Source of the DNA: Stegostoma tigrinum
Lineage: Eukaryota
DNA: 64,000 nt
Assembly: GCF_030684315.1 (NCBI RefSeq)
Contig: NC_081382.1
Coordinates: forward strand, 24,918,276-24,982,275
Reading direction: 5' to 3'
In this document: positions 6,126 to 61,583 of the stretch, piece by piece
Numbering within the stretch: position 1 is the stretch's first letter
Layout: each line of letters starts with the position of its first letter
Program-made: the position numbers and the translations under genes
The notes under the pieces: generated by a model
The model's database searches: none
What the model saw: only the letters and a program-made list of their open reading frames with translations
What the model was told of the DNA's origin: nothing

Positions 6126-6221
6126 TCTCTGATGAAGGGTCTAGGCCTGAAACGTCAGCTTTTGTGCTCCTGAGATGCTGCTTGGCCTGCTGTGTTCATC
6201 CAGCTTCACACTTTATTATCC
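6126..6221 (+). mobile_element. Short Penelope-derived element with a hammerhead ribozyme core
   Basis: CTGATGA-A-GGGT-CTAG-GCCT-GAAAC-GTC at 6129-6156, followed by the family body (gatgctgcttggcctgctgtgttcatccagc). Confidence 0.75.
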
Positions 6222-6710
6222 TTAAATTCTCCTGTTAGTTTTCAGCATATCTGACCTCTCATCAAAAAGCATTTAATGCCTAGTTGTCCAGTATAGTGCA
6301 ATTCAATGGGTAAAATGGTGAACTTCTTTGGGAGGCATCCAAAGGGTTGTTAGATAAATTTGAATGTAGTTGTGGTTCAGGTTCCTCTGTCTGTGATCAC
6401 TCAGCAATACTGGATATACAGACCACGCAGCTCCAGTCTGTGTTGGTGAATGTTACGGCTGGTGTCTGTTGTGGCCCAGTGAGGACATAACTTTAACAAA
6501 TGTAAATTGTGAGCCTTTAAAATCAGGCTTGGCCAACCTCTCTGCATAGGCCAACGTGTCAGTTTTTCACTCACTTGAAGGGCTTGTGAGCAAATATTAG
6601 AAAGCTAATGTTTGCCACAACAGAAAATTTGCATGTCAAATGATACAATTCCAAGGAACAAACTGATCATTAAGTGCCAAGCAGTGTAGAAAACTAGTCA
6701 AACTTTTCGC

Positions 6711-6807
6711 TGATAATAAAATGTGAGGCTGGATGAACACAGCAGGCCCAGCAGCATCTCAGGAGCACAAAAGCTGACGTTTCGGGCCTCGACCCTTCAT
6801 CAGAGAG
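6711..6807 (-). mobile_element. Short Penelope-derived element with an intact hammerhead core
   Basis: The reverse complement of 6776-6803 is CTGATGA-A-GGGT-CGAG-GCCC-GAAAC-GTC; same body as 6126-6221, inverted. Confidence 0.75.
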
Positions 6808-9800
6808 CAAACTTTTCTCTTTTGTCTTTTTGGTTAAGAAGCAGAGTGAGAGGTAGATGACTGGGCCTAAAGTTGTGATCGCCAGGTAAATGGCTGGCAG
6901 CAGGGCCAAGCCAAGGAATTCACAAAGACTGACCTTGGCTTGCCTCCAGTGGGGGCACACTCTGAGCTTTTACCTCAGCACAATGCACATGGAAATGGGG
7001 CTCAGAAATGAGTTACCCTTCAGACTGGCTTTGCCTCATCTCCCAGCATGCTTTGTGGATTGATCTTTGGGGCAGGTGTGGCAGGGTTGGACAGTGAGTG
7101 CCCACTCAAGCAACACAAGATGGAAGAGATTGAAAGAGTATTCTTCTCTCACGACACTGTGAGCCACCTCTTAGAGGTGCCATGAAGCCAAAGGCAGTGT
7201 GCAGTGACAGAGAGAAACAAAAACACGTGAAGTCTTCATCAATTGTTTCTTGATCAGAAGAATTAACAAAACAGAAGGGGTGTGTGTGAAGAAATGAATT
7301 TGAAACTCAGGTTTGTCAACTCATTTGATGAAAAATATTTAACTTCAGAAGGAAAAAAAATCATTAAAAATAATTATGTGGTCCTAATGTTTGCACTCTG
7401 TCGTCCTGGCTAAAAGATTCATGTTGTCCTGGAAACTATAACAGGTTTCCATTGCCACCCCTGTCTGTGCAAGTAGAAAAGTAACGGAAATAAATCATCT
7501 CATGTCAGATAAGCCTGACTCGCTTCACAATCTCTGCCTGTGTGGTATCATGACTGCTGTGTACTCAAGGGGCAGAAGTCTTTGGGGAATAATGGGATTC
7601 CACGCTGCTTTCTGGTGTAAGTGACAAAACAACTTGCATGTGTAACCATTTCCGAGCTGCAATAATCTGAGACAAGAGTGCATCTTCAGAAGGGAATGCA
7701 TCTTGTTGTTTGGAAACTTGAGCATTTAAAAATAAGAAATGTTGACTTGCTCCTTCCTTCTCTGGAGTATTTGTATAAAGTGGTTGGAGATTTTACTGGA
7801 TATATTTCCATATTAGTAATCCAATGGTTTAAAAATTCATCCTCAATAGAATCTCCAAAAAATATAACAGCACTTTAACCATTAAATTGCAAGGCCCTCA
7901 TTTATACCCTTGATTTAATTTTCAGATAGTAAATGATTCCTGGGGTCTTCTGCACCAGATTCTTGAATGTCAATCTAGTGTAAAATCTTTTTAAATTATC
8001 GAATATAAGAGATGAACTCCGAAGTAATTACAAATTCTTATTATTGCAGAAATACTGTTGTGTATTCCTGCTAGAAACCCAAAGCAATACAAGGCGCAGC
8101 AACATTTATTTATAATGAATTGCACTGAAAAGCTCATCATTGGTTGGGGAGTCTGTTGATGATTTTGGCTTCTTAACTTGCAATCCCTTGATTACTTTGA
8201 CCGAATGCAACATGTCTGACATTTTGCTTGACACTGCTTTGGATAAAATAATGATATTTTCTCGCTCACAAAAATGCAGAGTCCCTACAGGCTTAACATG
8301 TCTGCATATCTTAAACAGAGAAGCTACTTTTGCTGGGAGGAAGAAACCAGTAGAACAGGGTAAAGGGGGTGCTTTCTAGTATCTTACAAGTTCTTTTTCT
8401 TAATTGATCTGATTGGGCATATAATCCAGATCTGGTATAGGGCATTGTGCGTGCATTAATGTTCCTTTACAGATCTGCCCTGGTCGAGCCAGATTTGCAA
8501 AGGTGCAAATTTTTCCCTTAGAACCCACCCCCTACGTTGTCATTTCATAAAGCTGCTGACCCATGCATTGGGTGAAACCATATGCAAATGGACTTTATCC
8601 TCTAATTTTTTTTCTTCTTCTATTTTCTGACATCAAATTGGCACAAAAGAGCATTCGACAGTGCCATGACCAGTCTGACAGGTGTACTATCGGACTCTGG
8701 CAGCACGGCCTATTCAATGTCAGAGAAAGAAGCAATAATTAGAGCAAAGAACAGAATGAACGTCAAACGAATTACCAGGCAGCAGCTCATATTTGTCAGG
8801 AAGGATTGCATACATAAGAATTAAGTGACAGTACATGCCCGAGTAATGAAAGAGAAATGAAAGATTTGCCCAAACATAGCGCGCAGGATACATGCGTATG
8901 TCTAGCTGGAAGCAAAAGCGAGTAGCCTCGACAAATTATGCTGCCGGAGTTTTGAGAACCGTTATTTTTGCAGATATTCAGAGCCTGTAATTTGTTCAAT
9001 GATCGATTTGCCGTAGCACTTCAATGGTGTGTGTTCTGAAAAATTTCCCATCTCGTCATTAAAGGTGGTCTGCAATTCTTTTTGGTCTAAGAATACTGTT
9101 TGAGAATTCAGATTTGACTGCAAATACTAGGCAAGCCCCTGGTCGAAACACGTAAGTGCGCTTCTGCGGTGGATGATTTCAACAATAACCAAAATAAATT
9201 ATGTTCAAATGCTGAAACTCTGAAGCTTCATATCGACGCAAGTACTTTTAAACTGAAGTGTGCAATAAGAGCATTCACACCAGTTTTATGTTGCTGTGTG
9301 GTTTGAAGGTTTAAATTATCGAATATAAGAGATGAACTCCGAAGTAATTACAAATTACTAAAAAATATAATGTTTTACATGGAGTTGACATCTTAGTATC
9401 CCAGTTTGCAAAAAGCATGGGTTATGGACAGCCCCTCCTCCCAGGCAAACCCCCACTGACCAACTCATTTTCTCTGTAAATTGCTAAGAGCTGAAGGAGA
9501 ACAAGGAGTCTGGGTTGATGTAATTTACTAACATGAGATTATATCCAAAAACGTAAGGAATCGTCTTCAAAATCTAAGCTATTTGTTAATTATTTTCCAT
9601 TTGCATTGTCTTGTGTCCTTCATATCAGTTACATTGTTCAGGAAACTAGTCTCACAAAACTGAGCCACATATTACCGAATAACTTCAGATCTGAGTGATG
9701 AGAATCAGACTAGCCGCACCATTCCAAAGATAAAGCCATTCCGAAGCCAGGCAAACATGCTGGAATGAGATGAATGGGCAAGTTTAGCATTGGGATGGTT

Positions 9801-17590: not shown

Positions 17591-17858
17591 GTAAGCAGGT
17601 TGAGTTTCCTAATCTTTTATTTGAGAAGTTATGAATTCAGGGAATTCAATGCAGGAGTGTGTAGATTAACTCTCGGAAGTTGATTGTGTTGCTGAGTCCT
17701 CTCATTCTTCAATTAACTAAAAATTCAAATGCAGCCCAGATGCAAACACTGATGTTGACTTTCTCTCTGAGAATAATGGAAAGGTCTGAATAAACGATGG
17801 TTTACAATAAATAAGGTATTGAACCTCTGGTTGGAATCCAGCACCAGCAGGAGGAAAT

Positions 17859-17977
17859 AACAAGGTGTAGAGCTGGTTGAACACAGCAGGCCAAGAAGCA
17901 TCAGAGGAGCAAGAAAGCTGACATTTCAAGTCTGGACCCTTCTTCACCACCAACATGGCCACCAACCCCTGCCCCAC
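17859..17977 (-). mobile_element. Short Penelope-derived hammerhead element with a 15-bp TSD
   Basis: ccagcaggaggaaat at 17844-17858 and 17978-17992; family body with a decayed core. Confidence 0.75.
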
Positions 17978-18475: not shown

Positions 18476-18582
18476 TGCAAAACAAGTAATGGCATTTTGT
18501 TTCACGCTTCCTGGCTTCATTTAGTAAATGGAGTGAATGCAAAACAAAGATGAGTAAGTAAAGACTTACAAAAAATTAAGCA

Positions 18583-18990
18583 AAAAATTGTGGATGCTAA
18601 AGATCTGAAACAAAAACAGAAATTGCTGGAGATGACAGTTGACAGGTCTGCAGGTCTGGCCATATTGGTGAAGAGTTAACATTTGCAGTCTAGTCCCCTT
18701 CCTTCAGAACTGATAGTGGCTGGGAAAAGATGCTATTTCTTGCTGGTGACGGAGAGTGTGAGGGACAAGGAGTGAGTAGATAAGTGAAGACGGGCCCAGA
18801 GAGAGTGTGAAAGAATGCTAGGCAGATGAAGAGATAGTAAATGGCAAATAGAAAACCAGGAAAGGAGAAAAGCTGATAATGGGGACCACAAGAAGTTGAA
18901 AATGGATCAGCTGTGCTGAAACAATCCCATGTATTGACAGGGCCATGGATGTTGGGATGGGTAAAGGACATGGAAGGAGGTGTTCAGGCA
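18583..18990 (-). mobile_element. Penelope-derived terminal fragment (second subfamily) with a purine-rich extension
   Basis: Body tgtggatgctaaagatctgaaacaaaaacagaaattgctgg is shared with the 21376, 35342, 36466 and 37372 copies; decayed core ttaacatttg..ccttccttcag. Confidence 0.55.
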
Positions 18991-21375: not shown

Positions 21376-21564
21376 GACTGAAAGAACTGCAGACGCTGTA
21401 AATCAGGAACAAAAACAGAAGATGCTGGAAAAGCTCAGCAGGTCTAGCTGCATCTGTGAAGAGAAAATCTGAGGAAGGATCTCCAGACCCGAACCATTAA
21501 CCCTGAATTTTCACTTCACAGATGCTGCCAGACTTGCTGAGCTTTTCCAGCAACTTCTGTTTTG
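21376..21564. mobile_element. Fold-back Penelope-derived element (second subfamily) with a 15-bp TSD
   Basis: tcccagtagaacatc at 21361-21375 and 21565-21579. Inverted arms gctggaaaagctcagca / tgctgagcttttccagc; central CTGAGGA-A-GGATC-TCCA-GACCC-GAACC. Confidence 0.75.
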
Positions 21565-21829
21565 TCCCAGTAGAACATCACTTGCCACATCCCATCAGTT
21601 GGAGTGCCTGCTCATTATCCCTGTATTACTGTCTCTGCTATTCGGTAAATTGCCTATTTAGGTTATTAATCTGTTTTCAATCTCATGAACTTCAGCTTTA
21701 GTTAGCTACTGTTGAGATTGGTTAGCTCGCCGAGCTGGTTTGTTGTTCCGCAGACGTTTTATTACCATGCTGGGTAACATCCTCAGTGCAGCCTGTGATG
21801 AAGCATCGGTGTGTTTTCCCACCTGGTTT

Positions 21830-22249
21830 TTAAACCCTGGTGTCCGTTGAGATGGAATGCCCCATTTCCAGTTTTCTTTTGTAGTGGAATTTATACGGGG
21901 TCAAGTTCAATGTGTTTATTAATAGCCTGCTTAGTGGAGTGTCATACTTCCGGGAATTCTCGTGCTCGTCTCTGCCTAGCTTGTCCCAGGATCTTGGTGT
22001 TGTCCCAGTCAAAGTCATGTTCTCCTTGTCCATGTGGATTGAGATGAGTGAGTATTGGTCTTGTCTTTTTGTAGCCAGTTTGTGTTCACGTACTCTTGTT
22101 GTTAGTTTCCTTCCTGTTTGTCCGATGTAGTGTTTCTCGCAGTCTCTGCAGGGGATCTTGTAGATGACATTGGTCCTGTCCATGGCGGGGAGTGGGTCTT
22201 TAGTTCGGGTGAGCAGTTGTTGTAGGGTTGACGTGGGCTTGTGTGCCAC
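21830..22249 (-). pseudogene. Penelope GIY-YIG endonuclease fragment (frameshifted)
   Basis: NVIYKIPCRDCEKHYIGQTGRKLTTRVREH. Confidence 0.9.
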
Positions 22250-22690
22250 TCTGAAGCCCAGCGGTCATAGGAGTCTTGTGGCGAGCTCTGTGTTCCTGAC
22301 GTAGGGGAGTGTGATGAGTGTGTCAGGGCGTGTAGAATCTTTCTGGTGCTGTTTGTGTAGGCATCTTCTGACCCAGCTCTTTGGATATCCATTATTCTTG
22401 AACAGTTGGAAGAGGTATTCCTCCTCCTCTTGGCGTAGTTCCGTGTTGCTGCAGTGTGTTGTTGCCCTTTTAAATAGTGTTCACGCGCAGCTTCGTTTGT
22501 GTGTGCTGGGATGGTTACTATTGAAGTTCAGTGTCTGGTCTGTGTGTGTGGCTTTTCGATGTACTTTCATTTGCAGTTCCCCATTTGTCTTGCGCTCTGC
22601 CATGATGTCCAGGTATGGGAGTTGTTTGTTCTTCTCCTTCTCTCTGGTGAATCTTATTCCAGTGAGGGTGTTGTTTGTGAGTTTGTGTGT

Positions 22691-23317
22691 CTATTCTAAT
22701 TTGGTACGTTTAATGATGACAATGGTGTTGTCTACGTAGTGTATCCATAGTTTAGGTTGGATTTGCAGAAGGGTGGTCCTTTCCAGTCTTTGCATCACTT
22801 CTTCTGCTTTGAGTCCGGAGATGGGCGATCCCATGGGCGTCCTGTTGATTTGCTCGTATGTTTGGCCATTGAAGCCGAAGTGAGTGGTCAGGCATAGGTC
22901 CAGTAGTTTGAGCATGTTGTCCTTGGAGATGGTTTCACTGGGGTCGTGTTCTTGATCAAGTAGTGTTGTCATTGTATCCCTTGCTAGTAGTATGTCTATT
23001 GACGTAAATAGGGCAGTGACATCAAACAATAACATGGTCTCTTTGTCCTCTATCTTTATGTCTTTGATGGAGTTGAGGAATTCTTGGGCTGAGTGGATGG
23101 AGTGGGGTGATTTGTTGACTAGGTGCCTGAGTCTTCTTTGTAGTTCTCTGGCTAATCTGTGTGATGGAGTGCCTGGTAGGGAGACTGTGGGTCTGAGGGG
23201 GACCTCCGGCTTGTGCACTTTACGGAGGCCATAAAATCGGGCTGTGTTGGTTCCCTCGGGTTTCATTTTTAAGGAGTCTGTTTTCTTGATCTGTCCTGTT
23301 TGTTTATTAAGAAACAC
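22691..23317 (-). pseudogene. Penelope reverse transcriptase fragment (disrupted)
   Basis: FYGLRKVHKPEVPLRP, FDVTALFTSI, PMGSPIS and YVDNT (catalytic YVDD mutated); premature stop. Confidence 0.9.
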
Positions 23318-23437
23318 ATTGAACTCGACCCCATGTACATTCCACTACGAAAGAAAACTGAAAGTGAGGCAGTCCAACTCAATGGACTCCAGAGTTTAAA
23401 AACCAGGTGGGAAAACACACCGATGCTTCATCAGAGG

Positions 23438-23481
23438 CTGCACTGAGGATGTTACCCAGCGGGGTAATGAAACATCTGCGG
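23438..23481 (+). ncRNA. Minimal type I hammerhead ribozyme in the Penelope terminal repeat (CpG-decayed)
   Basis: CTGCA-CTGAGGA-T-GTTACCC-AGCG-GGGTAAT-GAAAC-ATC-TGCGG, with a 5-bp stem I and 7-bp stem II. The mirror copy at 21748-21791 (- strand) keeps GTC but has AAAAC. Confidence 0.75.
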
Positions 23482-23937
23482 AACAACAAACCAGCTCGGC
23501 GAGCCAACCAACATCATCGTCCACAACCTGAGCTCCAAGTCTACTCCAAAACTTTAGTTAGCTATCTTTTGATAGGGATTTTGATGACTGCTTTCTGGAA
23601 GTCCGTAGGAGTAAAATGCCTAGACTTCACAGAATTATAGAATTATTATCGCACAGGAGGAGTCCATTCAGCTTATCACACCTTCTGCAACGGCCTGAAT
23701 GAGCATCTCACTTCATGCTATTCTCCAGCTTTCTCTTGTAACCCTGCACATTCTCCTTTTATCAGATAACATTTCAATTCCTTTTTGAATCCTGTAATTT
23801 AACCTGCCACCTCTATACTGTCAGGTAGTGCACATAATTATTTCTTCAAAAACTACAGCCACAATAGTTAGAGATGGCCTGCCTTAACAAATGTGTGCTG
23901 TGTCTCTCTAATCAAGGTATTTCTAAGATATGCAGAC

Positions 23938-25227: not shown

Positions 25228-25460
25228 GAGATAACAAGGTGTAGAGCTGGATGAACACAGCAGGCCAAGCAGCATCAGAGGAGCAGGAAGGCTGATGTTT
25301 CCAGCCTAGACCCTGAAGAAGGGTCAAAATTTTCTGAAGAAGGGTATAGGCCCGAAACGTCAGCCTTCCTGCTCCTCTGATGCTGCTTGGCCTGCTGTGT
25401 TCATCCAGCTCTACACCTTGTTATCTCAGATTCTTCAGCATCTGCAGTTCCTACTATCTC
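25228..25460. mobile_element. Fold-back Penelope-derived element with an intact + strand hammerhead core and a 14-bp TSD
   Basis: tacccagacatgct at 25214-25227 and 25461-25474; ~85-bp inverted arms; CTGAAGA-A-GGGT-ATAG-GCCC-GAAAC-GTC at 25334-25361. Confidence 0.85.
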
Positions 25461-26029: not shown

Positions 26030-26449
26030 GCAACAAAGTGTGGAACTGGATGAACACAGCAGGCCAAGCAGCATCTCAGGAGCACAAAAGCTAATGTTCT
26101 GGGCCTAGACCCTACATCGGAGAGGGTTCTAGAATAAATCGGGAGAGAGGGGAGAGAGGCTACCTACTAACCTCATCCCACCTCCTTGACCTGTCTGTCT
26201 TCCCTGGACTGACCTATTCCCTCCCTACCTCCTCACCTATATTCTCCTCTCCACCTATCTTCTTTTCTTTCCATCTTCGGTCTGCCTCCCCCTCTCTCCC
26301 TATTTATTCCAGAACCTTCTCCCCATCCCCCTCTCTGATGAAGGGTCTAGGCCCGGAACATCAGCTTTTGTGCTCCTGAGATGCTGCTTGGCCTGCTGTG
26401 TTCATCCAGCTCCACACTCTGTTATCTTGGATTCTCCAGCATCTGCAGT
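26030..26449. mobile_element. Longer fold-back Penelope-derived element with a pyrimidine-rich spacer and an 11-bp TSD
   Basis: tcccattctag at 26019-26029 and 26450-26460. The inverted arms extend past the hammerhead core (agaataaatcgggagagagggg / ccccctctctccctatttattc). Confidence 0.8.
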
Positions 26450-28849
26450 TCCCATTCTAGACATGTCGGTGTGAGTTATCACGCTGATCTCCCTGACTTT
26501 TGCTGAGCTCACCTGTTAGTTTGTTTTCTCCCTCTGTTTTTTGTTAACTAAAGATAAATCAAATCATGGAAAATATGGAATTTGAACCTTGTAATTCACA
26601 TTATCACTGCACACAAAAGACGGTTGCCACTTGCTTTATCCATATTGTGCAATGTGTAGATAAGCATCTTACTTTGCATAAAAGGTAACACCTGAATAAA
26701 AACACAGCCTCACTTGCCCAGGCAGCTGTATTATACTTTGAGATATTTTGGATTAACTTCATCCAATTCTAGTGACATAATTACATTGGTAGTGACCTAA
26801 TTCTTGCCAGATTGTGAGCTGCTAAATTGCTTTTGAAATTCAGTAAACTGCTGATCAGAGTAAACACCTCAAAATCTGTGCTGTTGTCATGTTTGCAATG
26901 TGAATTACTTACATTTATATCTCATGTTTCACTCTTTTTAAACCATGAGTCATTTTCAGTAAGCTGATTAGGTCCATCCACAATAAATTGAAAATACTGC
27001 ACACACATTACTCACTAGCCTTGAAGCTCATCAACATGATGTGGATTTTACAATAAAATCCACAATCTAAGTTGGGTTTATCCACATTACTGACATTGCC
27101 ATTTTAATTTTATAAAGTGTGATAAAATTTAAATCATATTGAATTAGTTAACACAGATTAAAAATAATTATGCTGGATTAATATCTGAAAGACAATAGTT
27201 TCTCCGAAGTTTAACAATATTTAAAATTTCAAGAAGCAGAACATTAATTAAAAAGGCCTTGAGTTTGCAGATCAGAATTCATTATATACAGCAGAAAAAA
27301 CACAGGCAGTATCAAATCCATCTCCTGTTCTACATGATGCCCTGCATTCAGATCCAGCATAGTCAATCAAACATAGTTTAGGTTGGAAAAATATCAAACA
27401 CCTTGTCCAATAACATCTACCTCGTATTAGCACCCAAGTCAAATTTCTACCCCAATAGAGTCTGGCTTTTAGCTGGGACTCTCCATGAGGTCACTCCAGC
27501 TGCAGGGTGGACATTTCATCGCTAGGCGGTGAACAATAATTGACCCAGACCCCTGCTTAGAATTTGCACCAGGAGTGCCTTTTGTCAGATTTTGACAGCA
27601 GAGTTGCTATTTTCACCTGTCCCAAAAGAGATAACTGGTACAGGGAGATCTTTAAAAAGTGTGCACCAAATAAAAAAAATTGCAGTAAATCAAAGGATTC
27701 TTCATAATCTAATATCTTATTAGAATCCCTAAAAGGTATATCAAAGGATACTTCATAATTAAATATATATAAAACCCATAAAAATGGAAACACCCTCTCA
27801 ATATTTTGCTAATATATTCACTGAATGAATCATTGTGAGCTGACCCTTTGGTTCTGTTCAATGTTGAGAAAAGCAATGCATGGTAATAAAACCAACGAGC
27901 TGCAATGAATGGTGACAGAAGGGAAAACAGATAGGTAATCATTGAAAGCTACTTCAAATCTGCTAAAAAACTTAGGTGCCTACCCTCCCAGAACGGAATC
28001 ACGTATCAGATTTGCAGTCGTTATCCATTCTAAATCAACTGCACATGACTATATTTTATTGTCATGCTCAAACAAACATTTTATTCCTGTATCAAACAGA
28101 GAAGATGCCAAAATATGGATTCACAGCAATGCTTCGTGCTCACGTTAATTTCAAAACATGTTTAAGTAAGTAATTACTCAAAGACTATTGCCATCCAGTG
28201 TCTCAACTGTGTTCATATACAAATTGTGCTCAGCATGACGACTGGTTCTGTAGCCTCAGATCATACCTGCCTGTCATTCTTCAGTGACCAAACAAAGGCA
28301 TTGAAACTATGGAAAAAAACACATCCTCTTGAGAGCATTTTATTGACTGAGTTGAAGCACATTCTAAACTACATAAACATTGACACTTACTTTCTCCACA
28401 GCGCAAGAGCAATGTACCAGCGATAATTCTGTGACATTCTATAGTCATCGTAGTTAAGATTTCCCATCAGCTACTCAAAATAAGGTCATCTGATCATCAG
28501 ATGTGTTTCATCTGAAGCAGTTGATGTCCCCATGGATCCCTTAGGATGGAAAAACCGTACAGAGCTGTCACTGTATCAGGATTCCACACATTTGGTCTTT
28601 CACTTGATAGTGTTTTCCCTCTTTACAGAAGAAAATATCTCATTTTGAAGTTAATTTCACAAGATTATAGTAGGCACACACAACCTTAATTGTAGATGTT
28701 ATATAAAGACGCATTTATCTTTTTTGCTTCATTGTCAAAATGTTTAGATTGAAACCAAATGGTCGCATTCTTGCTAATGCATTCATTGTCGTAACTTGTG
28801 CAGAACAAGCCTACATAATCATTGGTGGGAATATTTACACTTTTTTAAA

Positions 28850-29005
28850 TTCGATCACAAGTTGTGCGTGTTTCTGGCCAGGTCATCACTTGTTGCCCAG
28901 CCCTAATTGCCCAGAGAGCAGTTAAGAATTAATTGCATTGCTGTGGGACTACAGTCACATGGTAGCCAGACCAGAAAAGAGTGGCAGATATTTTTGTCTA
29001 AATAA
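28850..29005 (-). mobile_element. SINE/LINE-tail fragment related to 41090-41395
   Basis: ttgcccagccctaattgccc..gagcagttaag..cattgctgtggg..cagtcacat is the reverse complement of that SINE's 3' part. Confidence 0.55.
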
Positions 29006-29121: not shown

Positions 29122-29204
29122 TACATGAACAATAATACTAATATCATGTGAAGCAAATGACCTTCCATAAAACGAATAGTAAAGTAAGTTGAATTATAGT
29201 ATAG

Positions 29205-29295
29205 ATAATAAAATGTGAGGCTGGATGAACACAGCAGGCCCAGCAGCATCTCAGGAGCACAAAAGCTGACGTTTCGGGCCTGGACCCTTCATCTC
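29205..29295 (-). mobile_element. Short Penelope-derived hammerhead element with a 16-bp TSD
   Basis: ttgaattatagtatag at 29189-29204 and 29296-29311; nearly identical to 6711-6807, but truncated inside CTGATGA. Confidence 0.8.
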
Positions 29296-32582: not shown

Positions 32583-35340
32583 TATCATATTCTTGTATTG
32601 CCTTTCTTTGCCACTGTCATACCAGATTGGTATGTAATGTAGGTTCAATTTTCTTGAAAACTTCAAACAGGCTTACTTAACAGACAAACTGATAGTCTGC
32701 AGTTACATTGCAACCTACCTACAGCACCTTTGTGTAACTGCTGCTGCTTGGACTAAGCATGGCTTCTTGTCATGTGCATTGATGTTTGACTTTTTAACAT
32801 ACTCACTTCATAAAACAGTCACAAAACTTTCCGGTTTTCCTTCCAAGACAAAAATTACATGCACTAAGGATGAAAATGTGTAAACCTAAAGCTGTTGTAA
32901 AACCACTTACATAGAAAGCAGAATAATTATATTTGAATTTGAGTCTTAGGGTATTTGTAGCAGAAAGGTCGCTTGACAATCCTTCCAGATCTCGCAATAG
33001 TATAACGTTCTCAATTCAAACGTGGACAGTCACATCATAGAACATAGAACATAGAACATAGAACAGTACAGCACAGAACAGGCCCTTCAGCCCACAATGT
33101 TGTGCCGACCATTGATCCCCATGTATGCACCCTCAAATTTGTGTGACCATATGCATGTCCAGCAGTCTCTTAAATGTCCCCCATGACCTTGCTTCCACAA
33201 CTACTGCTGGCAACATGCTCTCCACGCTCTCACAACTCTCTGTGTAAAGAACCCGCCTCTGACATCCCCTCTATACTTTCCTCCAACCAGCTTAAAACTA
33301 TGACCCCTCGTCTTAGCCATTTCTGCCCTGGGAAATAGTCTCTGGCTATCAACTCTATCTATGCCTCTCATTATCTTGTATACCTCAATTAGGTCCCCTC
33401 TCCTCCTCCTTTTCTCCAATGAAAAAAGTCCGAGCATAGTCAACCTCTCTTCATAAGATAAGCCCTCCAGTCCAGGCAGCATCCTGGTAAACCTCCTCTG
33501 AACCCTCTCCAAAGCATCCACGTCTTTCCTATAATAGGGCGACCAGAACTGGATGCAGTATTCCAAGTGCGGTCTAACCAAAGTTTTATAGAGCTGCAAC
33601 AAGATCTCACAACTCTTAAACTCAATCCCCCTGCTAATGAAAGCCAAAACACCATATGCTTTCTTAACAACCCTGTCCACTTGGGTGGCCATTTTAAGGG
33701 ATCTATGTATCTGCACACCAAGATCCCTCTGTTCCTCCACACTGCCAAGAATCCTATCCTTAATCCTGTACTCAGCTTTCAAATTCGACCGTCCAAAATG
33801 CATCACCTCGCATTTATCCAGGTTGAACTCCATCTGCCACCTCTCAGCCCATCTCTGCATCCTGTCAATGTCCCGCTGCAGCCTACAACAGCCCTCTACA
33901 CTGTCAACGACACCTCCGACCTTTGTGTCGTCTGCAAACTTGCTGACCCATCCTTCAATCCCCTCATCCAAGTCATTAATAAAAATTACAAACAGTAGAG
34001 GCCCAAGGACAGAGCCCTGTGGAACACCACTCACCACTGACTTCCAGGCAGAATATTTTCCTTCTACTACCACTCGCTGTCATATATCTCTCTTGCTGAC
34101 TTGCATGTTGGATGTCATGATGGTCTTCCACGTCTTCAATATTTGAACATATCTTTGTTTACGTTCCATGATCCACATGCATATCTTTCTTAACTCTGAC
34201 TAGTAGGATACTTGCACTAGCTCCCATGTCAAGTTTGGTCTTGCTTGTGTGTTTACCTGTTTTCTTTGGGCATATGATGTTAGTGACAAGAGCTTCTAAC
34301 CATTTGATTCTATGCACAGTTTGAGGACTATTTTCTGTTGGTCCTCAATGTTGCTCTGTTGCACTGTGCCTGCATCAGATCTAGGCTCCCAGCACAATTC
34401 AGATACTTCTGCAGGTAGCCCTGTTCCTTTGGCTACTCCTCCGGCATTTCCCATATCAATCTGGTTGGCTTTAAACAGACCTGAAGTGTTGATTCTCATT
34501 TCCAATTGCCATCCTTATCTTGACTGCTTACTTATCCAGGTTAGCAATAAATCTAAAAAGGGAAGTTTTACCATTATGTTTAAAATGTTGAGGATCAGAT
34601 GGGGACCTGTGGCTTTCCAATTCCTGCCAAGGAGTTTGGTAGTCATCTTCCAAACATTCTATGTATTTTGCAAATATTATCAATGCGTAGAGGATTTACA
34701 ATAAATAGACTATAAAGTTATGTGAAAATTCATCATGCAGCTACTTAATTCTATTGAGTTTTTAGACACATTCTTCACTATGCTGTTTTCAACTGCGGCT
34801 CAAATTTTACTATTCAATGCACTTTTTCATTGTTTCATGAGACCGGCATCCAAGGTTATCTTGATCCTGCAGAATCTGTAGCTCAACTGGGAACTGTCTC
34901 ACTGTCCATATAGATCACCACTCTGGTCAGCTGACAAATCAAGGACTTACTGTTCAGCCAGTGCTACTTACAAAATGATTTATTTCCCCCCAGGGAACTT
35001 GGTAAAAATATAACTTGCATAGCTTCACATCTTGCCTGTGGCTTTTCCCAGGCATTTTCAAGTCCTCATCACTGTATTTGCATTTTAAGAAAAATCTCTG
35101 CTGATCACCATGTCCTATTCCTACACTGTTTCTCTTGACACAGATTTGACATTCTCATATGGATGTGTAGTTTAATTTACTTGAAAATCTCAAACAGGAT
35201 TACTTAACGGACAAACCAATAACTTGCAATCACAAAGCAACTTCTGTGTACATCCTTAGTTCGCTGTGCTGCTAGTTAGACACCTCATGCTTGCTGGTCA
35301 TGTGGTGCCATCCTGAGCTCATTGACAATAATTAATAACA
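32583..35340 (-). mobile_element. Internally deleted Gypsy-type LTR retrotransposon fossil hosting a CR1 insertion
   Basis: Diverged direct repeats ~32583-32799 and ~35111-35340. PBS-like TGGTGATCAG (reverse complement of 35101-35110), protease remnant KLDMGASASIL (34204-34236) and pol C-terminal RSGRIVKRP (32966-32992). Confidence 0.65.
33037..34080 (-). mobile_element. Young 5'-truncated CR1 LINE with an open RT C-terminal frame (ORF 33201-34073)
   Basis: SGVPQGSVLGPLLF, KFADDTK and LVRPHLEYC motifs; (CATAGAA)4 tail at 33037-33064. Confidence 0.95.
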
Positions 35341-35341
35341 C

Positions 35342-35462
35342 GAAGAACTTTGGATGCTGGTGATATGAAACAAACAAAAATGGAAGTTTCTGGGGAGACT
35401 CAGCAGCATCTGTGGACAGAAAAACAGAGTTAACGTTTTGATTCCAGTGACCCTCCTTCAGT
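35342..35462 (-). mobile_element. Penelope-derived short element (second subfamily)
   Basis: gaagaactttggatgctgg..cagagttaacgttttgattccagtgaccctccttcag, with a decayed hammerhead on the - strand. Confidence 0.6.
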
Positions 35463-36465
35463 ACTAGCATACTAAGCTCCCAAAGCAGTAACATAATATT
35501 AATTAATTTTTGTGTGGGATGGGTCTTTATTTCCTCTTTATACTTCTACTTCTACTATCACTGAAGTCTGTGATTTGTTCTTAATGATTTACCAACCAGA
35601 CAAAATAATCTTCCATCTTTTATCACCTCAAACCGTGTAATTTTTTTAAAAAATCACTTCTCCAGATCTTCTCAAGCAAATACAGTACCTTTTTAAAAAC
35701 TTGAATCATACATAAATCTCTCTCATTCTTGGTTTTATCTGAAGAGCCTAAATTGTACATTTTCAATAGCTCCAAAGTCATTGCTGTAACAGAAGCTGTA
35801 TACAGGCATGGCTTTATCAACATTATATTTAGAATCATTACCATGTTTTGTATTCAACACATCCAGAAATAAAATGCAAAGTATTAGTGTGCTTTTTATT
35901 CCCTTCTGCCTGTAATATTCCTTTTGTTTGTTTGCACTCTTTGATCTGCCTGTCCTTCCCTTCTGTAAGAATGAATCATGCAGAGATTATTTACATTTGT
36001 AATTCTTGTTTCCAGAATCTGTACTTGATACTTTATTTGCTTTGAACTACATATGTGCATGCAGCCTGTTCCTTATTCTTTCCATGCAATTCCAAACAAA
36101 TATTGTAATGACAATTAAAAATCATTTCTTACTTCCTGTGAAAGTAAAATTGCATTCTACATTTCTCAAGACCTTTTGACCCAACATTATTCCAAGTGTT
36201 ATTGTTTAGACTTACAAAGTTACACTATGGTAATGTTAAGGCCTCCATAATTTAACTTTTCACCAATATGACATTGAGACAAGCAACACAAATGATTTTG
36301 AAAAATTAATTTTGCCCATGTTTCTGGTTTTGAATTCAACTTAAATTTGTGCACAGTGGAAGACATCTTTGCAAATACAATTCAAATTAGACAGGACTCG
36401 TTACCATAAATTGTGTAAGGCAAATATTTGAAAGATTTTCAATCAATTTGATTTAATTGGCATAT

Positions 36466-36655
36466 TAAAACCAAAAGAACTGTGGATGCTGTAAATCAGG
36501 AACAAAAACAAAGTTGCTGGAAAAGCTCAGCAGGTCTGGCAGCGTTTGTGAAGGAGAAAACAGAGTTAACATTTCGGGCCCAGTGACCCTTCCTCAGTTC
36601 TGAGGCTGATGCTGCTAGACCTGCTGAGGTTTTCCAGCAACTTTGTTTTAGTTCC
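36466..36655. mobile_element. Fold-back Penelope-derived element (second subfamily) with a 17-bp TSD
   Basis: tgatttaattggcatat at 36449-36465 and 36656-36672. The reverse complement of 36568-36597 is CTGAGGA-A-GGGTC-ACTG-GGCCC-GAAAT-GTT. Confidence 0.8.
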
Positions 36656-36714
36656 TGATTTAATTGGCATATCAGTAAGTCGTTGGGTCAAAGCTTTATA
36701 TTTAAGTCTGTTTC

Positions 36715-37371: not shown

Positions 37372-37562
37372 AGCAAAATACTGCAAATAGTGAAAAAAAA
37401 ACTGGAAATAGTTTGCAGGTCAGGCAGCACCTGGGAGAGTGAAACAGAGTTAACCTTTCGAGTCTGATGTGATGCTACTTCCAAGTGTTCTTCAGAGTTT
37501 AAACTCTGTTTCTTTCCACAGTTGCTGCCTGAATGCTGAGTATTTTTGACGTTTTGTTTTCA
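37372..37562. mobile_element. Old fold-back Penelope-derived element
   Basis: Inverted arms caggcagcacctgggagagtgaaacagagtt / aactctgtttctttccacagttgctgcctg. Confidence 0.55.
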
Positions 37563-39350
37563 GTTTATATTTTATACAAAAAGGACAATATTTTAAAAGG
37601 GATTCCATAAGCTCACTGACATTTGATCTGATATGTTTTTAATACCTAACTCTCAATGATGCTCCAATTTTTCATATCATCCTTTGACTGCTTTTCGACA
37701 AGGCTGTAACAAGCAATGAATATTTCCTTACCCATAATTTGTTTGTGAGGGATGGAATGTTCAGATTAAGTTAAGATGACCAGCGCTCTGTCTTTTTCTC
37801 CCAAATGCACAAACATTTTTTAAAGCAGATTTATTGAGCTTTTTTACCCCTCATGAGTTGCTAGCTCCCAGCTCCCAGAGTATTAAGTAATACTCTTTGA
37901 ATTTCCTTCGACAATGTCTTGCCTTTCATTCTCTGTTTTCTTTTGAAGTCCTGACCTCAATTTGTCACTCAGTCCAATGTTCTGCCTCGTTACCTCATTC
38001 TCAGCTTTGTCCAATACAGATCAATGCTGTAGCCTAACACTCCACCATAATGACCACAGGCTCATTTTTCTACCAGGAACCATCCCAAATGCATTTAAAT
38101 GATTGGAAATATCATTTTAAATTCTGAAAATAATGCAAAATTGCACAAATCAAATACATTGCTATAAATGTTACATATGGTGCATGCACATCTTTTCTAC
38201 AAACCTCACTTGCTATAACATTTTTATTTCAACATTTAAAACTAAAACTCCCACAGGAACAAGTCAACAACTCCCCATCACAGTTAATTACCACATTAAT
38301 GGGTCTTCCTCACTTGTTAGTATAAACTAAATATCCTACCATGGCTCATTGGATACTTATATTCATTCGCTTTTGCAATGTTTAGTCAGTGCTATGATTA
38401 ATGATGAAAAGATACCTTAGGTATATTTCAGCTGTTGAAACAGCTTAAAAATAATTGAAAATGGATGGTATGTGTCTTCTGTTAAATTTGTAAGTTAGAA
38501 GTGAAATGTGTAAAAGTGTCCCAGTTAGTCACTCCATCCTTTCCTGCCAATCAATGAGATCATACCTGATTTTGTGCATGAAACATTAAAACTCTGACAT
38601 ATACTGGATCTGTTATTAATATTTTAACACCTGAAGGTTTAAAGTCTGAACTCTGCTGCGAAATATTTACTGGCTTTCCAAACATTTCAATGCATTGTTG
38701 CATTTTTGATTTCACGATTTGTATTGATCATGTTTCACACAATCATCCACAAAGTTTATAATTGCAGATGAACACTTAACAAACTTGTATGCCGTTCCTT
38801 TGTCTGTTATAGCAGTAAAGATATTTACTCATTTAAAATAAATTTTTAATGCTGATCTTTTTCTCACTCACATATTTTGCAATAGGATGAATTGTGTTTG
38901 TCTTTCATTACCTTCATTAAGGATTCCACTTGGAGGCTTCAACCTTTCTTAAAAACCTGAACTTCATCGGGCCCTTCCCATACCACTCATTGCCACACAG
39001 GGAGCTGTCACCCTTTAAACTGTTATTGTTATTAATCATTTCTGATTTCTTCCTGGATAAGGTTGATGACCCAACCCAGTGTGAGAATTCTAAATCCAAC
39101 TGCAATCCAAAAGTAGGCAGAGAAAATCTGATTGAGCGGTGGGATGGGACACAATGCATTGTAAATGGAGGGTGCTACATTTTCTGCCTCGCTAATTGAC
39201 CAGAGAAACTAATCCATTACACTGGGGCACAATACCCTAGAACCCCCTGACTTGCAAGCTTGGCTTGTAATTAAAAAGCCAAATATTCTACGAATATTTC
39301 ATTGGGCTTTTGACATTAAATTTGATTCTTGCAGATCAAAATAGAAATGA

Positions 39351-39581
39351 GATAACGAAGTGTGGAGCTGGATGAACACAGCAGGGCAAGCAGCATCAGA
39401 GGAGCACAAAAGCTGACGTTTCAGGCCTAGACCCTTCTTCAGAAAAGCTTTTTCTGATGAAGGGTCTAGGCCCAAAACATCAGCTTTCCTGCTCCTAAGA
39501 TGCTGCTTGGCCTGCTGTGTTCATCCAGCTCCACACTTTGTTATCTGGGATTCTCCAGCATCTGCAGTTCCCATTATCTTT
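39351..39581. mobile_element. Fold-back Penelope-derived element with back-to-back hammerhead cores and a 17-bp TSD
   Basis: gatcaaaatagaaatga at 39334-39350 and 39582-39598. The - strand core at 39415-39442 is intact; the + strand core from 39454 is CpG-decayed. Confidence 0.85.
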
Positions 39582-55224: not shown

Positions 55225-56088
55225 AAAGAACGAAGAACAAAGAATATTACAGCACAGGAACAGGCCCTTCAGCCCTCCAAGCCTGCGCCGATCGAGATCC
55301 TCTGTCTAACCTGTCATCTATTTTCTAACGGTCTGTGTCCATTTGCTCCCTGCCCATCCATGTACCTGTCCAAATATATCTTAAAAGACGCTAACGTGTC
55401 TGTGTCTACCACCTCCGCTGGCAACACGTTCCAGTCACCCACCACCCTCTGTGTAAAGAACTTTCCACGCCTATCTCCCTTAAACTTTCCTCCTCTCACC
55501 TTGAACTCATGACCCGTAGTAATTGAGTCCCCAACTCTGGGGAAAAAGCTTCTTGCTATCCACCCTGTCTATACCCCTCATGATTTTGTAGACCTCAATC
55601 AGGTCCCCCCTCAATCTCCGTCTTTCTAATGAAAATAATCCTAATCTACTCAACCTCTCTTCATAGCTAGCACCCTCCATACCAGGCAACATCCTGGTGA
55701 ACCTCCTCTGCACCTTCTCCAAAGCATCCACATCCTTTTGGTAATGTGGCAACCAGAACTGTACACAGTACTCCAAATGTGGCCGAACCAAAGTCCTATA
55801 CAAGTGCAACATGACCTGCCAACTCTTGTACTCAATACCCCGCCCAATGAAGGAAAGCATGCCATATGCCTTCTTGACCACCCTATTGACCTGCGTTGTC
55901 ACCTTCAGGGAACAATGGACCTGAACACCCAGATCTCTCTGTTCATCAATTTTCCCCAGGACTTTTCCATTTACTGTATAGTTCACCCTTGAATTTGATC
56001 TTCCAAAATGCATCACCTCGCATTTGCCCGGATTGAATTCCAGCTGCCATTTATCTGCCCAACTCTCCAGCCTATCTATATTCTGCTG
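55225..56088 (-). mobile_element. Young 5'-truncated CR1 LINE (one frameshift)
   Basis: WADKWQLEFNPGKCEVMHFG..LVRPHLEYCVQFW..FFTQRVVGDWNVLP, with an (AAGAAC)-type tail. The N-terminal ~30 aa of ORF 55507-56178 are flanking read-through. Confidence 0.95.
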
Positions 56089-58318: not shown

Positions 58319-58479
58319 CAGAGATAATAGGAACTGCAGATGCTGGAGAATCTGAGATAACAAGGTATAGAGCTGGATGAACACAGCAGGCCAAGCAGTA
58401 TCAGAGGAGCAAGAAGGCTGATATTTCGGCCCTAGACCCTTCTTCAGAAGAGGGGTCTGGACCCGAAATGTCAGCTTTC
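58319..58479. mobile_element. Asymmetric fold-back Penelope-derived element with a 15-bp TSD
   Basis: ctttcacaactccct at 58304-58318 and 58480-58494; the right arm keeps GGGT-CTGG-ACCC-GAAAT-GTC. Confidence 0.8.
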
Positions 58480-60789
58480 CTTTCACAACTCCCTTACTGT
58501 TTAACAATCATAATGACGTGAGACTTCCACATATCTATCTAGGTATTTTCTTAAGTTTAACCTGCTACGTTTGTACAGTTTACTGGCACTGTCCTCTTCC
58601 AACAATTGTCCAGGAAGCCATTTGGTCATTAACTTGTATGCTTGTCTAGAATCAAATGGGTAGAAAATTAACTCCAGTGAATTTTATAGTTAGTGAGGAA
58701 ATAATATTTACATCATGGTCATGACCCATTTCTTATTTTGTACAATGTAACAATTGAAACAGTATAAATTACATGTATTGTATTCTTCACTTGATCATTC
58801 ATTATTCAATAAATAATGGAATTTAAAATGTAAAATAAGGTTCAGTGTTAGTAGGACTTTAATTCTGTTTTTTCACGACTCAACGAATGAGATGAGATCA
58901 GTAGCTGAGGTAGTCTAAAATGATTTATTTGTGACTCTATGACTCTATTTCCCAGTATGCAGTGACAATTTCACCTTGTACAGGGCACACAGTGAGTTTG
59001 CACTTTTTGTTTTATGCCCAGTAAAATTCAGCAAAAGAAAATCAAATCTTCCATGATTATTCATGAGCAATGACAGCGGGTCAGGTCAGGCAGTAGTATT
59101 GCACAGGACTTGATTCAGTTCTTCTAATCGTATAGAAGATATCCAAGTGTTACAAAGATGTGGTTTTATAAGATGGTATTTTGAGACTTTGTTTCTAGTT
59201 TAGGGTAAAAGGAATTGGGTCAAATGACTGTCTCTGAATCTGCCTAGTAACCAGATTGGGTTATGGAGTTGTTAAGGATTACAGGGATGCCCAGGTAGTT
59301 TTCTTATTAGGAAGAAGGTGTGAGATGTTCACATTTGGAAATAATTTAGCAACATCTGTGGCTAGACTGCTAGTTTCCAAAGTTTTGGGAAGATGCTGAG
59401 AGTTTCGGCTTTGTAACAGTTATGTTTTCAATTGTCCTTTAGACAAGAGAGCTAGGGTCTCAAGGATAACTCATTTGCATTTCTACCTGGATAATAGGCC
59501 CATGCGACTATTATTATTTTTATTGCGATTCTTGATAATGATTCTCATTGCCATGGAAATGGGCTTTGAGAGGGGAAAAGCTTCTGAGACACTCACAAAC
59601 ACAGTTAGTCTGCTGAGACCTGGGAAAAAGAGAACAGCTAGAGGCTGAGAAGCTTTATGGGTCACCGATTAGTAATGCAAGTGCTCAGATTTTAAATGAG
59701 CTTGAAAGATTTGCGTGGTCTACACTGGGGAGAAAGCCCTCATGATGAAAAGATAGTTCTGTGATTAAAATTCCTAGACTGGTGAAGGAAAGGAACAAAG
59801 TGAGCCTTCAGGAGTAGAAATCACTTCAGATTGGGCCCAGGAAATTCCAAGGACTATTTAAGGGTCAGTGTAAGGAGACCTGCAGAGAAGAGTTTTTGGT
59901 TGTGTTTAAAGTATAACTTGCCTGTTGAAATAGTATTTAATCAATTGTGTTTTTAAGCTGTTTAATAAAAGTCTTAAAATGTGAAATCATTTGAGCTATA
60001 AACTGGATGTTCAGTTTTCAAAAAAAGATCCTCTGACAAATGACACACAGCCCACCTCTTCCCTCAAAAAGGAGTTTCCTTAACTCCTAGAGATTATGTA
60101 GAGAGCATGCAGCAATGATGGACTCAAAATCTCAATTCTTTCAATGCTTTACTTTCACATTTTGGAAAGTTGGACCATTCCCTTTTAAAAATATTTAAGT
60201 ACAAGCATTTAAAAGTAAGTGATCGTCTTAATGATTTTTGAAGGAGAAGTGCGTCTACACAATTGTAAAAAAGGCTCCAGGACAAAAATTAGTTAAACTA
60301 GATGCATGAGATTAAACAGTAAACACTTGGTAAGGCTGTCTGAGTAATTGAAAAGGCATCTTACGCTCATTGTATCGGAGAGCCTTTTGCTTGAAGTTTA
60401 TGAAGAGAGAGGTAAAGAGACACTGAAGCCTTTGTGGGAGAAAAGCTATAAATTCAGTGTAACTGCACAAAAGATAGGATATTACGAGGAATACAGATCG
60501 TGTTTGGAATAAAATAGCGGATATATTCAATTTAACTTCAAGAAGACAAGCCACTGATATAGGGAAGCAAAATTAGTCACTATTTATTTGTACAGTGCAG
60601 AGACCAGTTTTATGGATTGAAGTAAGTCAGTAACATCTTCTGCATGTTCTCCTCATAGTAAATAAAGCATTGTAATGATTTGAACTTATTTTCTTGTAAT
60701 TTCATTTGAACGCTGCTTGTGTTGAGCAATTCTTTCACTTAATGCACAAAGCACATCTATCAGTCTCCTACAGTTGGTGGGATTGTTGG

Positions 60790-61110
60790 GGTGCAGTCAC
60801 CTGGTGGTATTATTGTTGGACTGTTAATCCAGAGATCCAGATAATGTGGTTCTGGGGACTTGGGTTCAAATCCCAACATGGCAGCTGGTGGAATTTGAAT
60901 TTAATAAATACCTGGAATTAAGATTCTAGTGATGATCATGAATCCATTGCCAGTTGTCAAAAAACCTATCTGGTTCACTAAAGTCATTTAGGGAAAGAAA
61001 CTACCATCCTTACCTGGTCTGGTCTACATGTGACTCCAGACCTACAGCAATGTGGTTGACTCTGAACTGTCTCTGCCTAGCCAGCAATGCCCTCATCCCG
61101 TGAATGAGTA
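60790..61110 (+). mobile_element. tRNA-derived SINE of the 41090 family
   Basis: B box GGGTTCAAATCCC, shared body, and tail ccctcatcccgtgaatgagt. Confidence 0.8.
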
Positions 61111-61358
61111 GAGGAGAAAAAAATGGGGTAAAGAAATCCACTGAGCAACAAAACATACTTGAAAAGAAAATTTAGAAAAACTATTTCCAAGAAATTGATA
61201 TTTAAGCATTGATCAATAATTCTAAAATCCTTTTTCAAAGATACAGAAATGACAGGCCAGATGTTCCATCAAATTTGGTCCAGAGTACGATTATGGACCC
61301 TCCATATTAAACCCCTCCACCTTTAAAACTAGTCTAATCCAAACCTGATATGGAATAA

Positions 61359-61583
61359 AGAGATAGTAGGAACTGCTGATGCTGGAGAATCTGAGATAAC
61401 AAGGTGCAGAGCTGGATGAACACAGCAGGCCAAGTAACATCAGAGGAGCAGGAAAGCTGACGTTTTGGGCCTAGACCCTTCAGAAATTTCTGAAGAAGGT
61501 TCCTGACTCAAAACATCAGCTTTCCTACTCCTCTGATGCTGCTTGGCCAGCTGTGTTCATCCAGCTCTACACCTTGTTATCTC
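61359..61583. mobile_element. Fold-back Penelope-derived element (both cores decayed)
   Basis: ~90-bp inverted arms meeting at cttcagaaatttctgaag; no clear TSD. Confidence 0.8.

What the first reader, a model, noticed from the sequence alone, without database searches (positions are those of the whole stretch)
6126..61583. Dense family of short non-coding retro-insertions, each built around a minimal hammerhead ribozyme
Seen: about a dozen 90-420-bp copies in two subfamilies (6126, 6711, 17859, 18583, 21376, 25228, 26030, 29205, 35342, 36466, 37372, 39351, 58319, 61359). They share CTGANGA-A-[stem II]-GAAAC-GTC, intact or decayed. Stem II is kept while the loop varies (CTAG, CGAG, CCAG, ATAG, CTGG, ACTG), and pairing-compatible changes occur (GGGT/GCCC, GGGT/ACCC, GGGTC/GGCCC). 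Eight copies have 11-17-bp TSDs, no poly(A) and no ORF. Established: Penelope-like elements carry minimal type I hammerheads with a short palindromic stem III that can work as dimers, and non-autonomous retrozymes exist in other taxa. Inference: this is a very high-copy ribozyme-bearing family mobilised by Penelope RT/GIY-YIG, either retrozyme-like or extreme terminal truncations. Stem I is only ~2 bp in these short copies, so activity is unproven.
Basis: partly seen in the sequence, partly recalled or inferred. Interest (0 to 1): 0.8.

Follow-up and report, generated by a model that had tools for sequence, protein, structure and literature searches.

The report
Hammerhead-bearing ends of Penelope retroelements
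The short repeats are the end pieces of two very abundant Penelope-like jumping genes whose small hammerhead ribozyme motif is already known; the one odd point is that half of the young copies begin right at the front edge of the ribozyme, which may mark where their RNA starts.

Summary
The repeats are real but are not a separate non-coding family. They are 5'-truncated, often inverted-pair insertions of the end module (pseudo-LTR) of two related Penelope-like elements. I found both parents in the same genome. Family A has an intact 1,080-aa RT + GIY-YIG copy in a partial tandem; family B has long decayed copies 48-62% alike in protein. Variable target duplications, no poly(A), an inverted second arm and a ~33-nt tail on one arm (17 of 18 pairs) are published Penelope features, as is the minimal hammerhead. 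Retrozyme arrays were not found. Stem II shows no two-sided change, and cleavage is untested. The density is ordinary here (96,925 exact cores of one subfamily genome-wide). One feature deserves follow-up: 32 of 52 young arms stop within -7..+14 of the ribozyme core (1.5 expected). A lone TATA-like box lies about 30 nt upstream of an initiator-like site at stem I in both families. These copies may therefore be run-off cDNAs from an RNA that starts at the ribozyme (inferred, about even odds). This scan noted the same family type and the same pile-up before, on other genomes.

The parts
6126..6220 (+). Family A single arm, -3..+91 (0 = C of CTGA), no tail, no TSD found
6712..6807 (-). Family A single arm, -4..+91, 10-bp exact TSD
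17857..17946 (-). Older family A (A2) single arm starting at about +1, 14-bp TSD set off by about 31 extra bases on the 5' side
18578..18886 (-). Old family-B-like copy with tail and about 165 nt of upstream 3' UTR-like sequence; no TSD found
21381..21562 (.). Family B inverted pair: tailed minus arm from +37, untailed plus arm from -1 with the hammerhead core; 15-bp TSD
21713..23560 (-).
25229..25460 (.). Family A2 inverted pair: untailed minus arm from +7, tailed plus arm from -1; 14-bp TSD
26032..26456 (.). Family A inverted pair; the plus arm (26159-26456) carries 173 nt of the parent's 3' UTR, the link to the coding element; 11-bp TSD
29203..29293 (-). Family A single arm, +2..+92, 16-bp TSD
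35333..35465 (-). Decayed family B single tailed arm starting at about -4; no TSD found
36463..36662 (.). Family B inverted pair: tailed minus arm with hammerhead core, untailed plus arm from +51; 17-bp TSD
37377..37520 (.). Strongly decayed family-B-like inverted pair; no TSD found
39350..39580 (.). Family A inverted pair, both arms from -1, plus arm tailed; 17-bp TSD
58321..58481 (.). Family A2 inverted pair: tailed minus arm, very short plus arm; 15-bp TSD
61360..61582 (.). Family A2 inverted pair: tailed minus arm from +4, untailed plus arm from -1; no TSD found

Best explanation
The copies are dead-on-arrival, 5'-truncated insertions of the pseudo-LTR end of two autonomous Neptune-type Penelope-like elements (A and B). 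SHOWN: coding parents, one module at the end of all copies, two 3' end positions about 33 nt apart, inverted pairs, variable TSDs. FROM THE LITERATURE (anole element, in vitro): the RT/GIY-YIG protein nicks both target strands and starts reverse transcription inside the RNA at two nearby sites. That would give one tailed and one untailed arm, which join at their 5' ends. [quoted passage not shown] RT starting at +91 or +125 of that first pseudo-LTR runs off the RNA's 5' end after 95-130 nt, which gives the short class. Long copies need a template with an upstream copy (tandem read-through). The ribozyme rides along; most insertions come from uncut RNA, and a minority (7 of 61 arms starting at +28..+37) may come from cut RNA. 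The confidence given is for the identity; the start-site step is about 0.5.
For: Parent A: L098 is a 1,218-nt truncated copy followed by a full copy with a 1,080-aa frame from Met (RVT_1 E 3.7e-5, GIY-YIG E 0.004, YIDD, CX4CxxC linker). Seven other long-frame copies are 94.5-98.3% alike. The RT search had 102,633 first-look candidates. Parent B: 6 of 6 loci fetched with its GIY-YIG part carry the B ribozyme module downstream, and L149 matches residues 360-1048 of A at 48-62%. Tails: 17 of 18 young pairs have exactly one tailed arm. 5' ends of 61 young A arms in DNA not chosen for family A: 32 in -7..+14, 7 in +28..+37, 2 further in, 19 at -106 or longer, and 1 at -20 that lies 5 nt from a locus edge. 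That is 32 of 52 arms reaching +15 against 1.5 expected from the upstream rate. Independent check: 54 of the first 100 exact cores on contig C1 also match exactly back to -14. The only TATA-like box (at most 1 mismatch) in 330 nt upstream is at -34 in A (1 copy scanned) and -35/-33 in B (2 copies); in A1 it lies at -33..-36 in 42 of 52 long copies. Poseidon-type arms with their own hammerhead start at its edge in 1 of 17 cases (Fisher p 0.0006). Two young arms run past the tail into the sequence that precedes the ORF (L105, L115). PMC11167929: internal RT starts match the tail, 5' shortening of the RNA shortens the product, and ribozyme mutants insert normally.
Against: No RNA 5' ends were seen; the start site rests on motif spacing in two related families, which share ancestry. 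The A box reads as a poly(A) signal on the other strand, and both upstream regions also resemble a splice acceptor. The mapped D. virilis Penelope promoter is TATA-less and starts 46 nt before a 75-nt intron that ends at helix I. A third of young arms extend far upstream, so a second template class is needed. In older A2 copies the box position wanders. Ends come from BLAST against one natural copy and are uncertain by a few bases. The Poseidon control is small, mixed and 63-90% alike to its reference. Both Pfam matches are below the curated cut-offs, and no RT tree was built.
Confidence: 0.88

Rival explanations
1. Same parents, but the pile-up is structural: RT falls off, or the cDNA is joined, at the folded ribozyme region or at the C-rich tract just upstream, on templates that extend further.
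For: The A monomer folds into one long hairpin spanning 0..+29 (-11.4 kcal/mol against -3.6 for the hammerhead fold). Many pair junctions are palindromic. Family A has a C-rich run directly upstream.
Against: A stall should fall at the hairpin's 3' base (about +29), where only 7 of 61 arms start. Family B lacks the C run yet piles up at the same place (about 16 of 27 B-type arms within -14..+14, counted by eye). Unpaired single arms pile up too. Poseidon-type arms with a hammerhead do not.
Confidence: 0.3
2. Ribozyme cleavage, with or without circularisation, defines the template, as proposed for Penelope elements in general.
For: Seven of 61 arms start at +28..+37, at or just after the predicted cut. 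Core boxes and the self-complementary stem III are kept across three families. The model is proposed in PMC4209133.
Against: The main pile-up is about 30 nt upstream of the cut, so those templates were uncut there. The +28..+39 stretch is itself a small hairpin, and 5 of the 7 arms are in pairs. Anole ribozyme mutants insert normally, and no reads began at the cut site.
Confidence: 0.12
3. An independent non-autonomous family (retrozyme-like or SINE-like) of 95-130-nt masters amplifies itself using the Penelope protein.
For: Short copies outnumber long ones about 2 to 1 and have a preferred 5' boundary. Retrozymes derived from pseudo-LTRs are reported in vertebrates, including one cartilaginous fish.
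Against: No tandem arrays: 2 of 73 cores have a same-strand neighbour within 1 kb, and none of 16 tandem-repeat rows involves the family. Short and long arms share the commonest variant (16 and 12 arms). No shared upstream flank was seen among short copies. If the promoter is upstream, short copies lack it.
Confidence: 0.07
4. The hairpin-shaped copies are MITEs of a cut-and-paste DNA transposon.
For: Inverted arms with flanking duplications.
Against: TSD length varies from 9 to 19 bp, the arms are unequal (one tailed), 25 of 43 units are single arms, and the arms are the 3' ends of RT-coding elements.
Confidence: 0.01

Closest known systems
Canonical endonuclease-positive Penelope-like elements, Neptune/Nematis type (PMC8557442, passages; PMC3846280, passages)
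   Same: Single ORF with RT and C-terminal GIY-YIG, CX2-5CxxC linker, partial tandem forming a pseudo-LTR, strong 5' truncation, adjacent inverted copy, 30-40-bp tail on one end, variable TSD.
   Different: Copy number (roughly 0.9 million arms extrapolated from 440 kb) and a sharp 5' pile-up at the ribozyme edge. I did not find the pile-up described in the parts of these papers that I read.
Minimal type I hammerheads of metazoan Penelope elements (Cervera and De la Pena 2014, PMC4209133, results and discussion read)
   Same: Core boxes, unpaired base before stem II, G10.1-C11.1 pair, self-complementary positions 15.2-16.2, no loop III, mostly single scattered motifs from truncated elements; reported in fish Neptune, Poseidon and Xena.
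   Different: Stem II is short (4-5 bp against 7-8 in Schistosoma). Family A has a 2-bp stem I like D. virilis Penelope. Sharks are not named in the text I read; its supplements were not seen.
Anole Poseidon element PAc (Frangieh et al. 2024, PMC11167929, main text read)
   Same: Two 3' ends that define the tail; ribozyme at the pseudo-LTR/ORF junction.
   Different: Other clade. In PAc the ORF begins inside the ribozyme; in family A the first Met lies 166 nt after the core.
Non-LTR retrozymes (bioRxiv 10.64898/2026.07.22.740005, parts 1-2 of 5 and passages)
   Same: Type I hammerhead, pseudo-LTR ancestry, no coding capacity in the short units.
   Different: Retrozymes are defined there as head-to-tail tandem units each with a hammerhead; these copies are single or inverted and grade into coding elements.

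Membership tests
EN+ Penelope-like element | Single ORF with RT and C-terminal GIY-YIG endonuclease in the parent | tested here: met
   L098, 1,080 aa from Met; RVT_1 E 3.7e-5 and GIY-YIG E 0.004, both below curated cut-offs; YIDD. Family B from L149.
EN+ Penelope-like element | Partial tandem forming a pseudo-LTR | tested here: met
   L098: 1,218-nt truncated copy directly before a full copy
EN+ Penelope-like element | Adjacent inverted 5'-truncated copy and 30-40-bp tail on one end | tested here: met
   18 of 43 young units are pairs; 17 of 18 have exactly one tailed arm
EN+ Penelope-like element | Variable-length TSD, no poly(A) | tested here: met
   29 of 43 units with 9-19 bp; 3' ends shown
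Neptune/Nematis type | CX2-5CxxC zinc-finger-like linker between RT and EN | tested here: met
   Present in A and B, absent from the 144-aa Poseidon-type fragment; definition from PMC8557442
Neptune clade | RT phylogeny with reference elements | not tested
   No reference sequences were on hand; the choice of Neptune over Nematis is recalled, not tested
Minimal type I hammerhead | Core boxes, extra base before stem II, G10.1-C11.1, self-complementary 15.2-16.2 | tested here: met
   cores were picked with a pattern holding these boxes, so their conservation is partly built in
Minimal type I hammerhead | Stem I of 4-5 bp | tested here: inconclusive
   Met in B (4 bp); only 2 bp in A, also in full-length copies
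Minimal type I hammerhead | Covariation of stems | tested here: not met
   98 cores: stem II 94% paired, 0 of 5 pairs with a two-sided change; covariation score reached by 201 of 500 shuffles; only stem I pair -2/+29 changes on both sides, between families
Minimal type I hammerhead | Self-cleavage (as dimer or with protein) | not testable with these tools
   Needs an assay; computed monomer and dimer minimum-energy folds are not the hammerhead fold
Non-LTR retrozyme | Head-to-tail tandem units each with a hammerhead | tested here: not met
   2 of 73 cores with a same-strand neighbour within 1 kb in 504 kb; rare arrays elsewhere in the genome are not excluded
Non-LTR retrozyme | Circular RNA intermediate | not testable with these tools
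   No raw RNA reads were offered
MITE of a DDE transposon | Fixed-length TSD and symmetric terminal inverted repeats | tested here: not met

The most novel reading that the evidence does not exclude
In these Neptune-type elements a TATA/initiator promoter starts the RNA on the first base of hammerhead stem I. The ribozyme is then the very 5' end of the mRNA, a leader of about 32 nt that cleavage would remove together with the cap. Internal RT priming on that first pseudo-LTR yields strong-stop-like cDNAs that insert on their own and form the commonest insertion class. The genome would hold a record of several hundred thousand in vivo RT products that maps template 5' ends and the cut-to-uncut ratio.
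Probability: 0.45. Interest if true: 0.55.

Novelty: new member of a known kind. Interest (0 to 1): 0.3.

Why it matters
As a class nothing here is new: truncated Penelope ends with minimal hammerheads, tails and inverted arms are in print. What could matter is scale and a mechanistic handle. The two families leave roughly 0.9 million arms by extrapolation, and family A alone covers 8.8% of 440 kb sampled. What RNA Penelope elements copy, and what their weak ribozyme is for, are open questions. The 5' pile-up makes a sharp prediction, a capped start at about -4 with a minor cut form at +28, that one 5'-end experiment can test.

Tried and rejected
Rfam scan of the window: no hammerhead family among 15 weak matches; the miRNA-like hits are the inverted pairs. 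A seeming fixed 5' end 175 nt upstream of the core was an artefact of the query and vanished on inspection. L031 looked like pseudo-LTR/ORF/pseudo-LTR but is two separate insertions with host DNA between. A first core descriptor had a wrong gap length and found 1 hit; it was corrected. A spliced upstream exon joined to the short copies was considered; no shared upstream sequence was seen in the junctions printed. RNA: no RNA holder listed. Contigs of four guessed-RNA runs from other organisms were laid; they cannot show starts, so they count neither way, though loose ends gather at the core's edge in two runs. A larger unselected sample was planned but not obtained, so the end counts rest on 592 kb. 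Lunse et al. on dimer cleavage was not held; I know it only as a title in a reference list. Repbase and Dfam could not be searched, so these families may already be deposited there.
Full report
Observation. The window lies on contig C37 of a 3.2-Gb genome. That it is a cartilaginous fish is my recollection from its repeats, not a tool result. All 14 listed places hold the repeat, in two sequence families, A and B. Seven are inverted pairs of arms. Nine of 14 have exact flanking duplications of 10-17 bp. In 43 young family-A units, 29 have a duplication of 9-19 bp; using outer flanks only, 23 of 43 reach 9 bp against 7 of 1000 mismatched pairs. One 31-nt core of subfamily A1 occurs exactly 96,925 times genome-wide and a 33-nt B core 2,176 times, with reversed controls at 0. 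In 44 stretches of 10 kb taken at round coordinates of large contigs, 39 hold at least one arm: 104 A and 22 B arms in 440 kb, or about 0.76 and 0.16 million by extrapolation. Family A covers 8.8% of that DNA against 2.4% of the window. The window is therefore ordinary for this genome.

What the copies are. The plus arm at 26159-26456 carries 173 nt more than the others. In the 30 best genome matches that sequence continues into a reading frame ending in a GIY-YIG domain, with shared upstream lengths from 4 to at least 1,503 nt in 45 copies. A protein search gave 102,633 first-look candidates and open frames up to 1,092 aa. L098 is a 1,218-nt truncated copy followed directly by a full copy with 1,080 aa from the first Met. 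It matches RVT_1 (E 3.7e-5) and GIY-YIG (E 0.004), both below the curated cut-offs, and has YIDD and a CX4CxxC linker. Craig et al. (PMC8557442, passages) give that linker for Neptune and Nematis. Seven other long-frame copies are 94.5-98.3% alike in DNA. Family B has its own parent: all 6 loci fetched with its GIY-YIG part carry the B module downstream, and L149 matches residues 360-1048 of A at 48-62%. No intact B frame was seen.

The 3' ends. Young arms end near +91 or near +125 (0 = C of CTGA; the reference stops at +123). In 17 of 18 pairs exactly one arm has the longer end. This is the published unit: a 5'-truncated copy, an adjacent inverted copy, and a 30-40-bp tail at one end (PMC8557442 and PMC3846280, passages). 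Frangieh et al. (PMC11167929, parts 1-2 of 4) show for an anole element that both strands are nicked and that RT starts inside the RNA at two sites that bound the tail. They also show that the RNA must include sequence downstream of those sites, that shortening its 5' end shortens the product, and that ribozyme mutants insert normally.

The ribozyme motif. Both families fit the minimal type I hammerhead of Cervera and De la Pena (PMC4209133, parts 1-2 of 4; supplements not seen). That paper reports the motif in fish Neptune, Poseidon and Xena elements and as thousands of scattered single motifs from truncated copies. Family A has GUC and a 2-bp stem I even when full-length; family B has GUU and 4 bp. 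On 98 distinct cores (of 165 found, sampled by family and picked with a core pattern), stem II is 94% paired but none of its 5 pairs changes on both sides, and the covariation score is reached by 201 of 500 shuffles. Much of the variation is at CpG positions, as expected from decay after insertion (inference). The A monomer prefers a long hairpin that buries the core (-11.4 against -3.6 kcal/mol). Activity is untested. Retrozymes as defined in bioRxiv 10.64898/2026.07.22.740005 (parts 1-2 of 5 and passages; supplements closed) are tandem units. Here 2 of 73 cores in 504 kb have a same-strand neighbour within 1 kb, and short and long arms share the commonest variant.

The 5' ends. I mapped young A arms (88% or more alike to one natural copy) in 592 kb not chosen for family A: the 44 stretches, the window, and 28 loci fetched for family B. 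Of 64 arms, 2 at locus edges and 1 tail-only arm were dropped. Of the 61 left, 32 start in -7..+14, 7 in +28..+37, 2 at +47 and +64, and 19 at -106 or beyond. One at -20 lies 5 nt from a locus edge and is probably cut off. So 32 of the 52 arms that reach +15 stop within 23 nt, against 1.5 expected from the upstream rate. On contig C1, 54 of the first 100 exact cores also match back to -14, close to the 20 of 34 in my sample. Genome-wide exact counts fall from 140,210 (+31..+61) to 96,925 (0..+30) to 71,066 (-14..+16), though subfamily variants and CpG decay blur that comparison. B-type arms show the same tendency (about 16 of 27 within -14..+14, by eye; 2,176 against 822 exact matches). Poseidon-type arms in the same DNA, which have their own hammerhead, start at its edge in 1 of 17 cases; this control is small and diverged.

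Mechanism. The main pile-up is about 30 nt upstream of the predicted cut, so those templates were not cut. In 330 nt upstream of the core the only TATA-like box is at -34 in A and -35/-33 in B (1 and 2 copies scanned; position held in 42 of 52 long A1 copies). About 30 nt further on, at -4, B reads TCAGTT and A reads CCTCTCT, which resemble initiator and TCT start motifs (consensus motifs recalled, not from a call). In B that base is also the first base of stem I. I infer that the RNA starts there and that RT primed on this first pseudo-LTR runs off the end. Against this: no RNA ends were seen, the two families are related, and the A box doubles as an antisense poly(A) signal. The mapped D. 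virilis promoter is TATA-less and further upstream (PMC2377424, passages), although rotifer pseudo-LTRs have a putative TATA and initiator. I put this step at about even odds and a structural stop at about 0.3.

Novelty. Six paper searches found no paper on shark Penelope hammerheads or on this 5' pile-up. The library lacks most subscription journals, Lunse et al. was not held, and Repbase and Dfam were not searchable. PMC6155905 and PMC6765202 were seen as passages only. Earlier notes of this scan report the same kind of element on other genomes, and one reports the same pile-up and suggests that the template begins there. They are not independent support. A look-up for the TATA/initiator reading found none. 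Verdict: new members of a known kind, interest 0.3, with one testable mechanistic lead.

Noticed in passing
   Followed up: partly
window 33201-34079 and 55507-56262 (minus strand): Two related LINE-type RT fragments (RVT_1 E 2e-13 for the first; about 76-78% alike to each other); CR1/L2-type by recollection.
   Followed up: no
window 3341-4527: Minisatellite of 27- and 41-nt units with higher-order periods of 123 and 287 nt, open in several frames.
   Followed up: no
window 28848-29002, 30753-30823, 36947-37017, 41262-41384, 61004-61067: Scattered pieces of another interspersed repeat, unrelated to the Penelope ends.
   Followed up: no
L033 3435-7656: A 4.2-kb fold-back insertion of family A with nested inverted pieces at the junction, next to an open frame of at least 327 aa that looks like a host exon.
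   Followed up: no
L098 ORF residues about 190-300: The family A protein has a variable Thr/Ala/Pro/Asp-rich repeat tract before the RT domain whose length differs among near-intact copies, and a Ser/Pro/Gln repeat tail after the endonuclease.
   Followed up: no
L040 893-1017: A short tailed family A arm inserted inside the ORF of an older family A copy.
   Followed up: no
L012 1219-1259, L048 5293-5333, L050 8753-8793: A further core variant with a 3-4-bp stem II and a very short loop; parent not sought.
   Followed up: no
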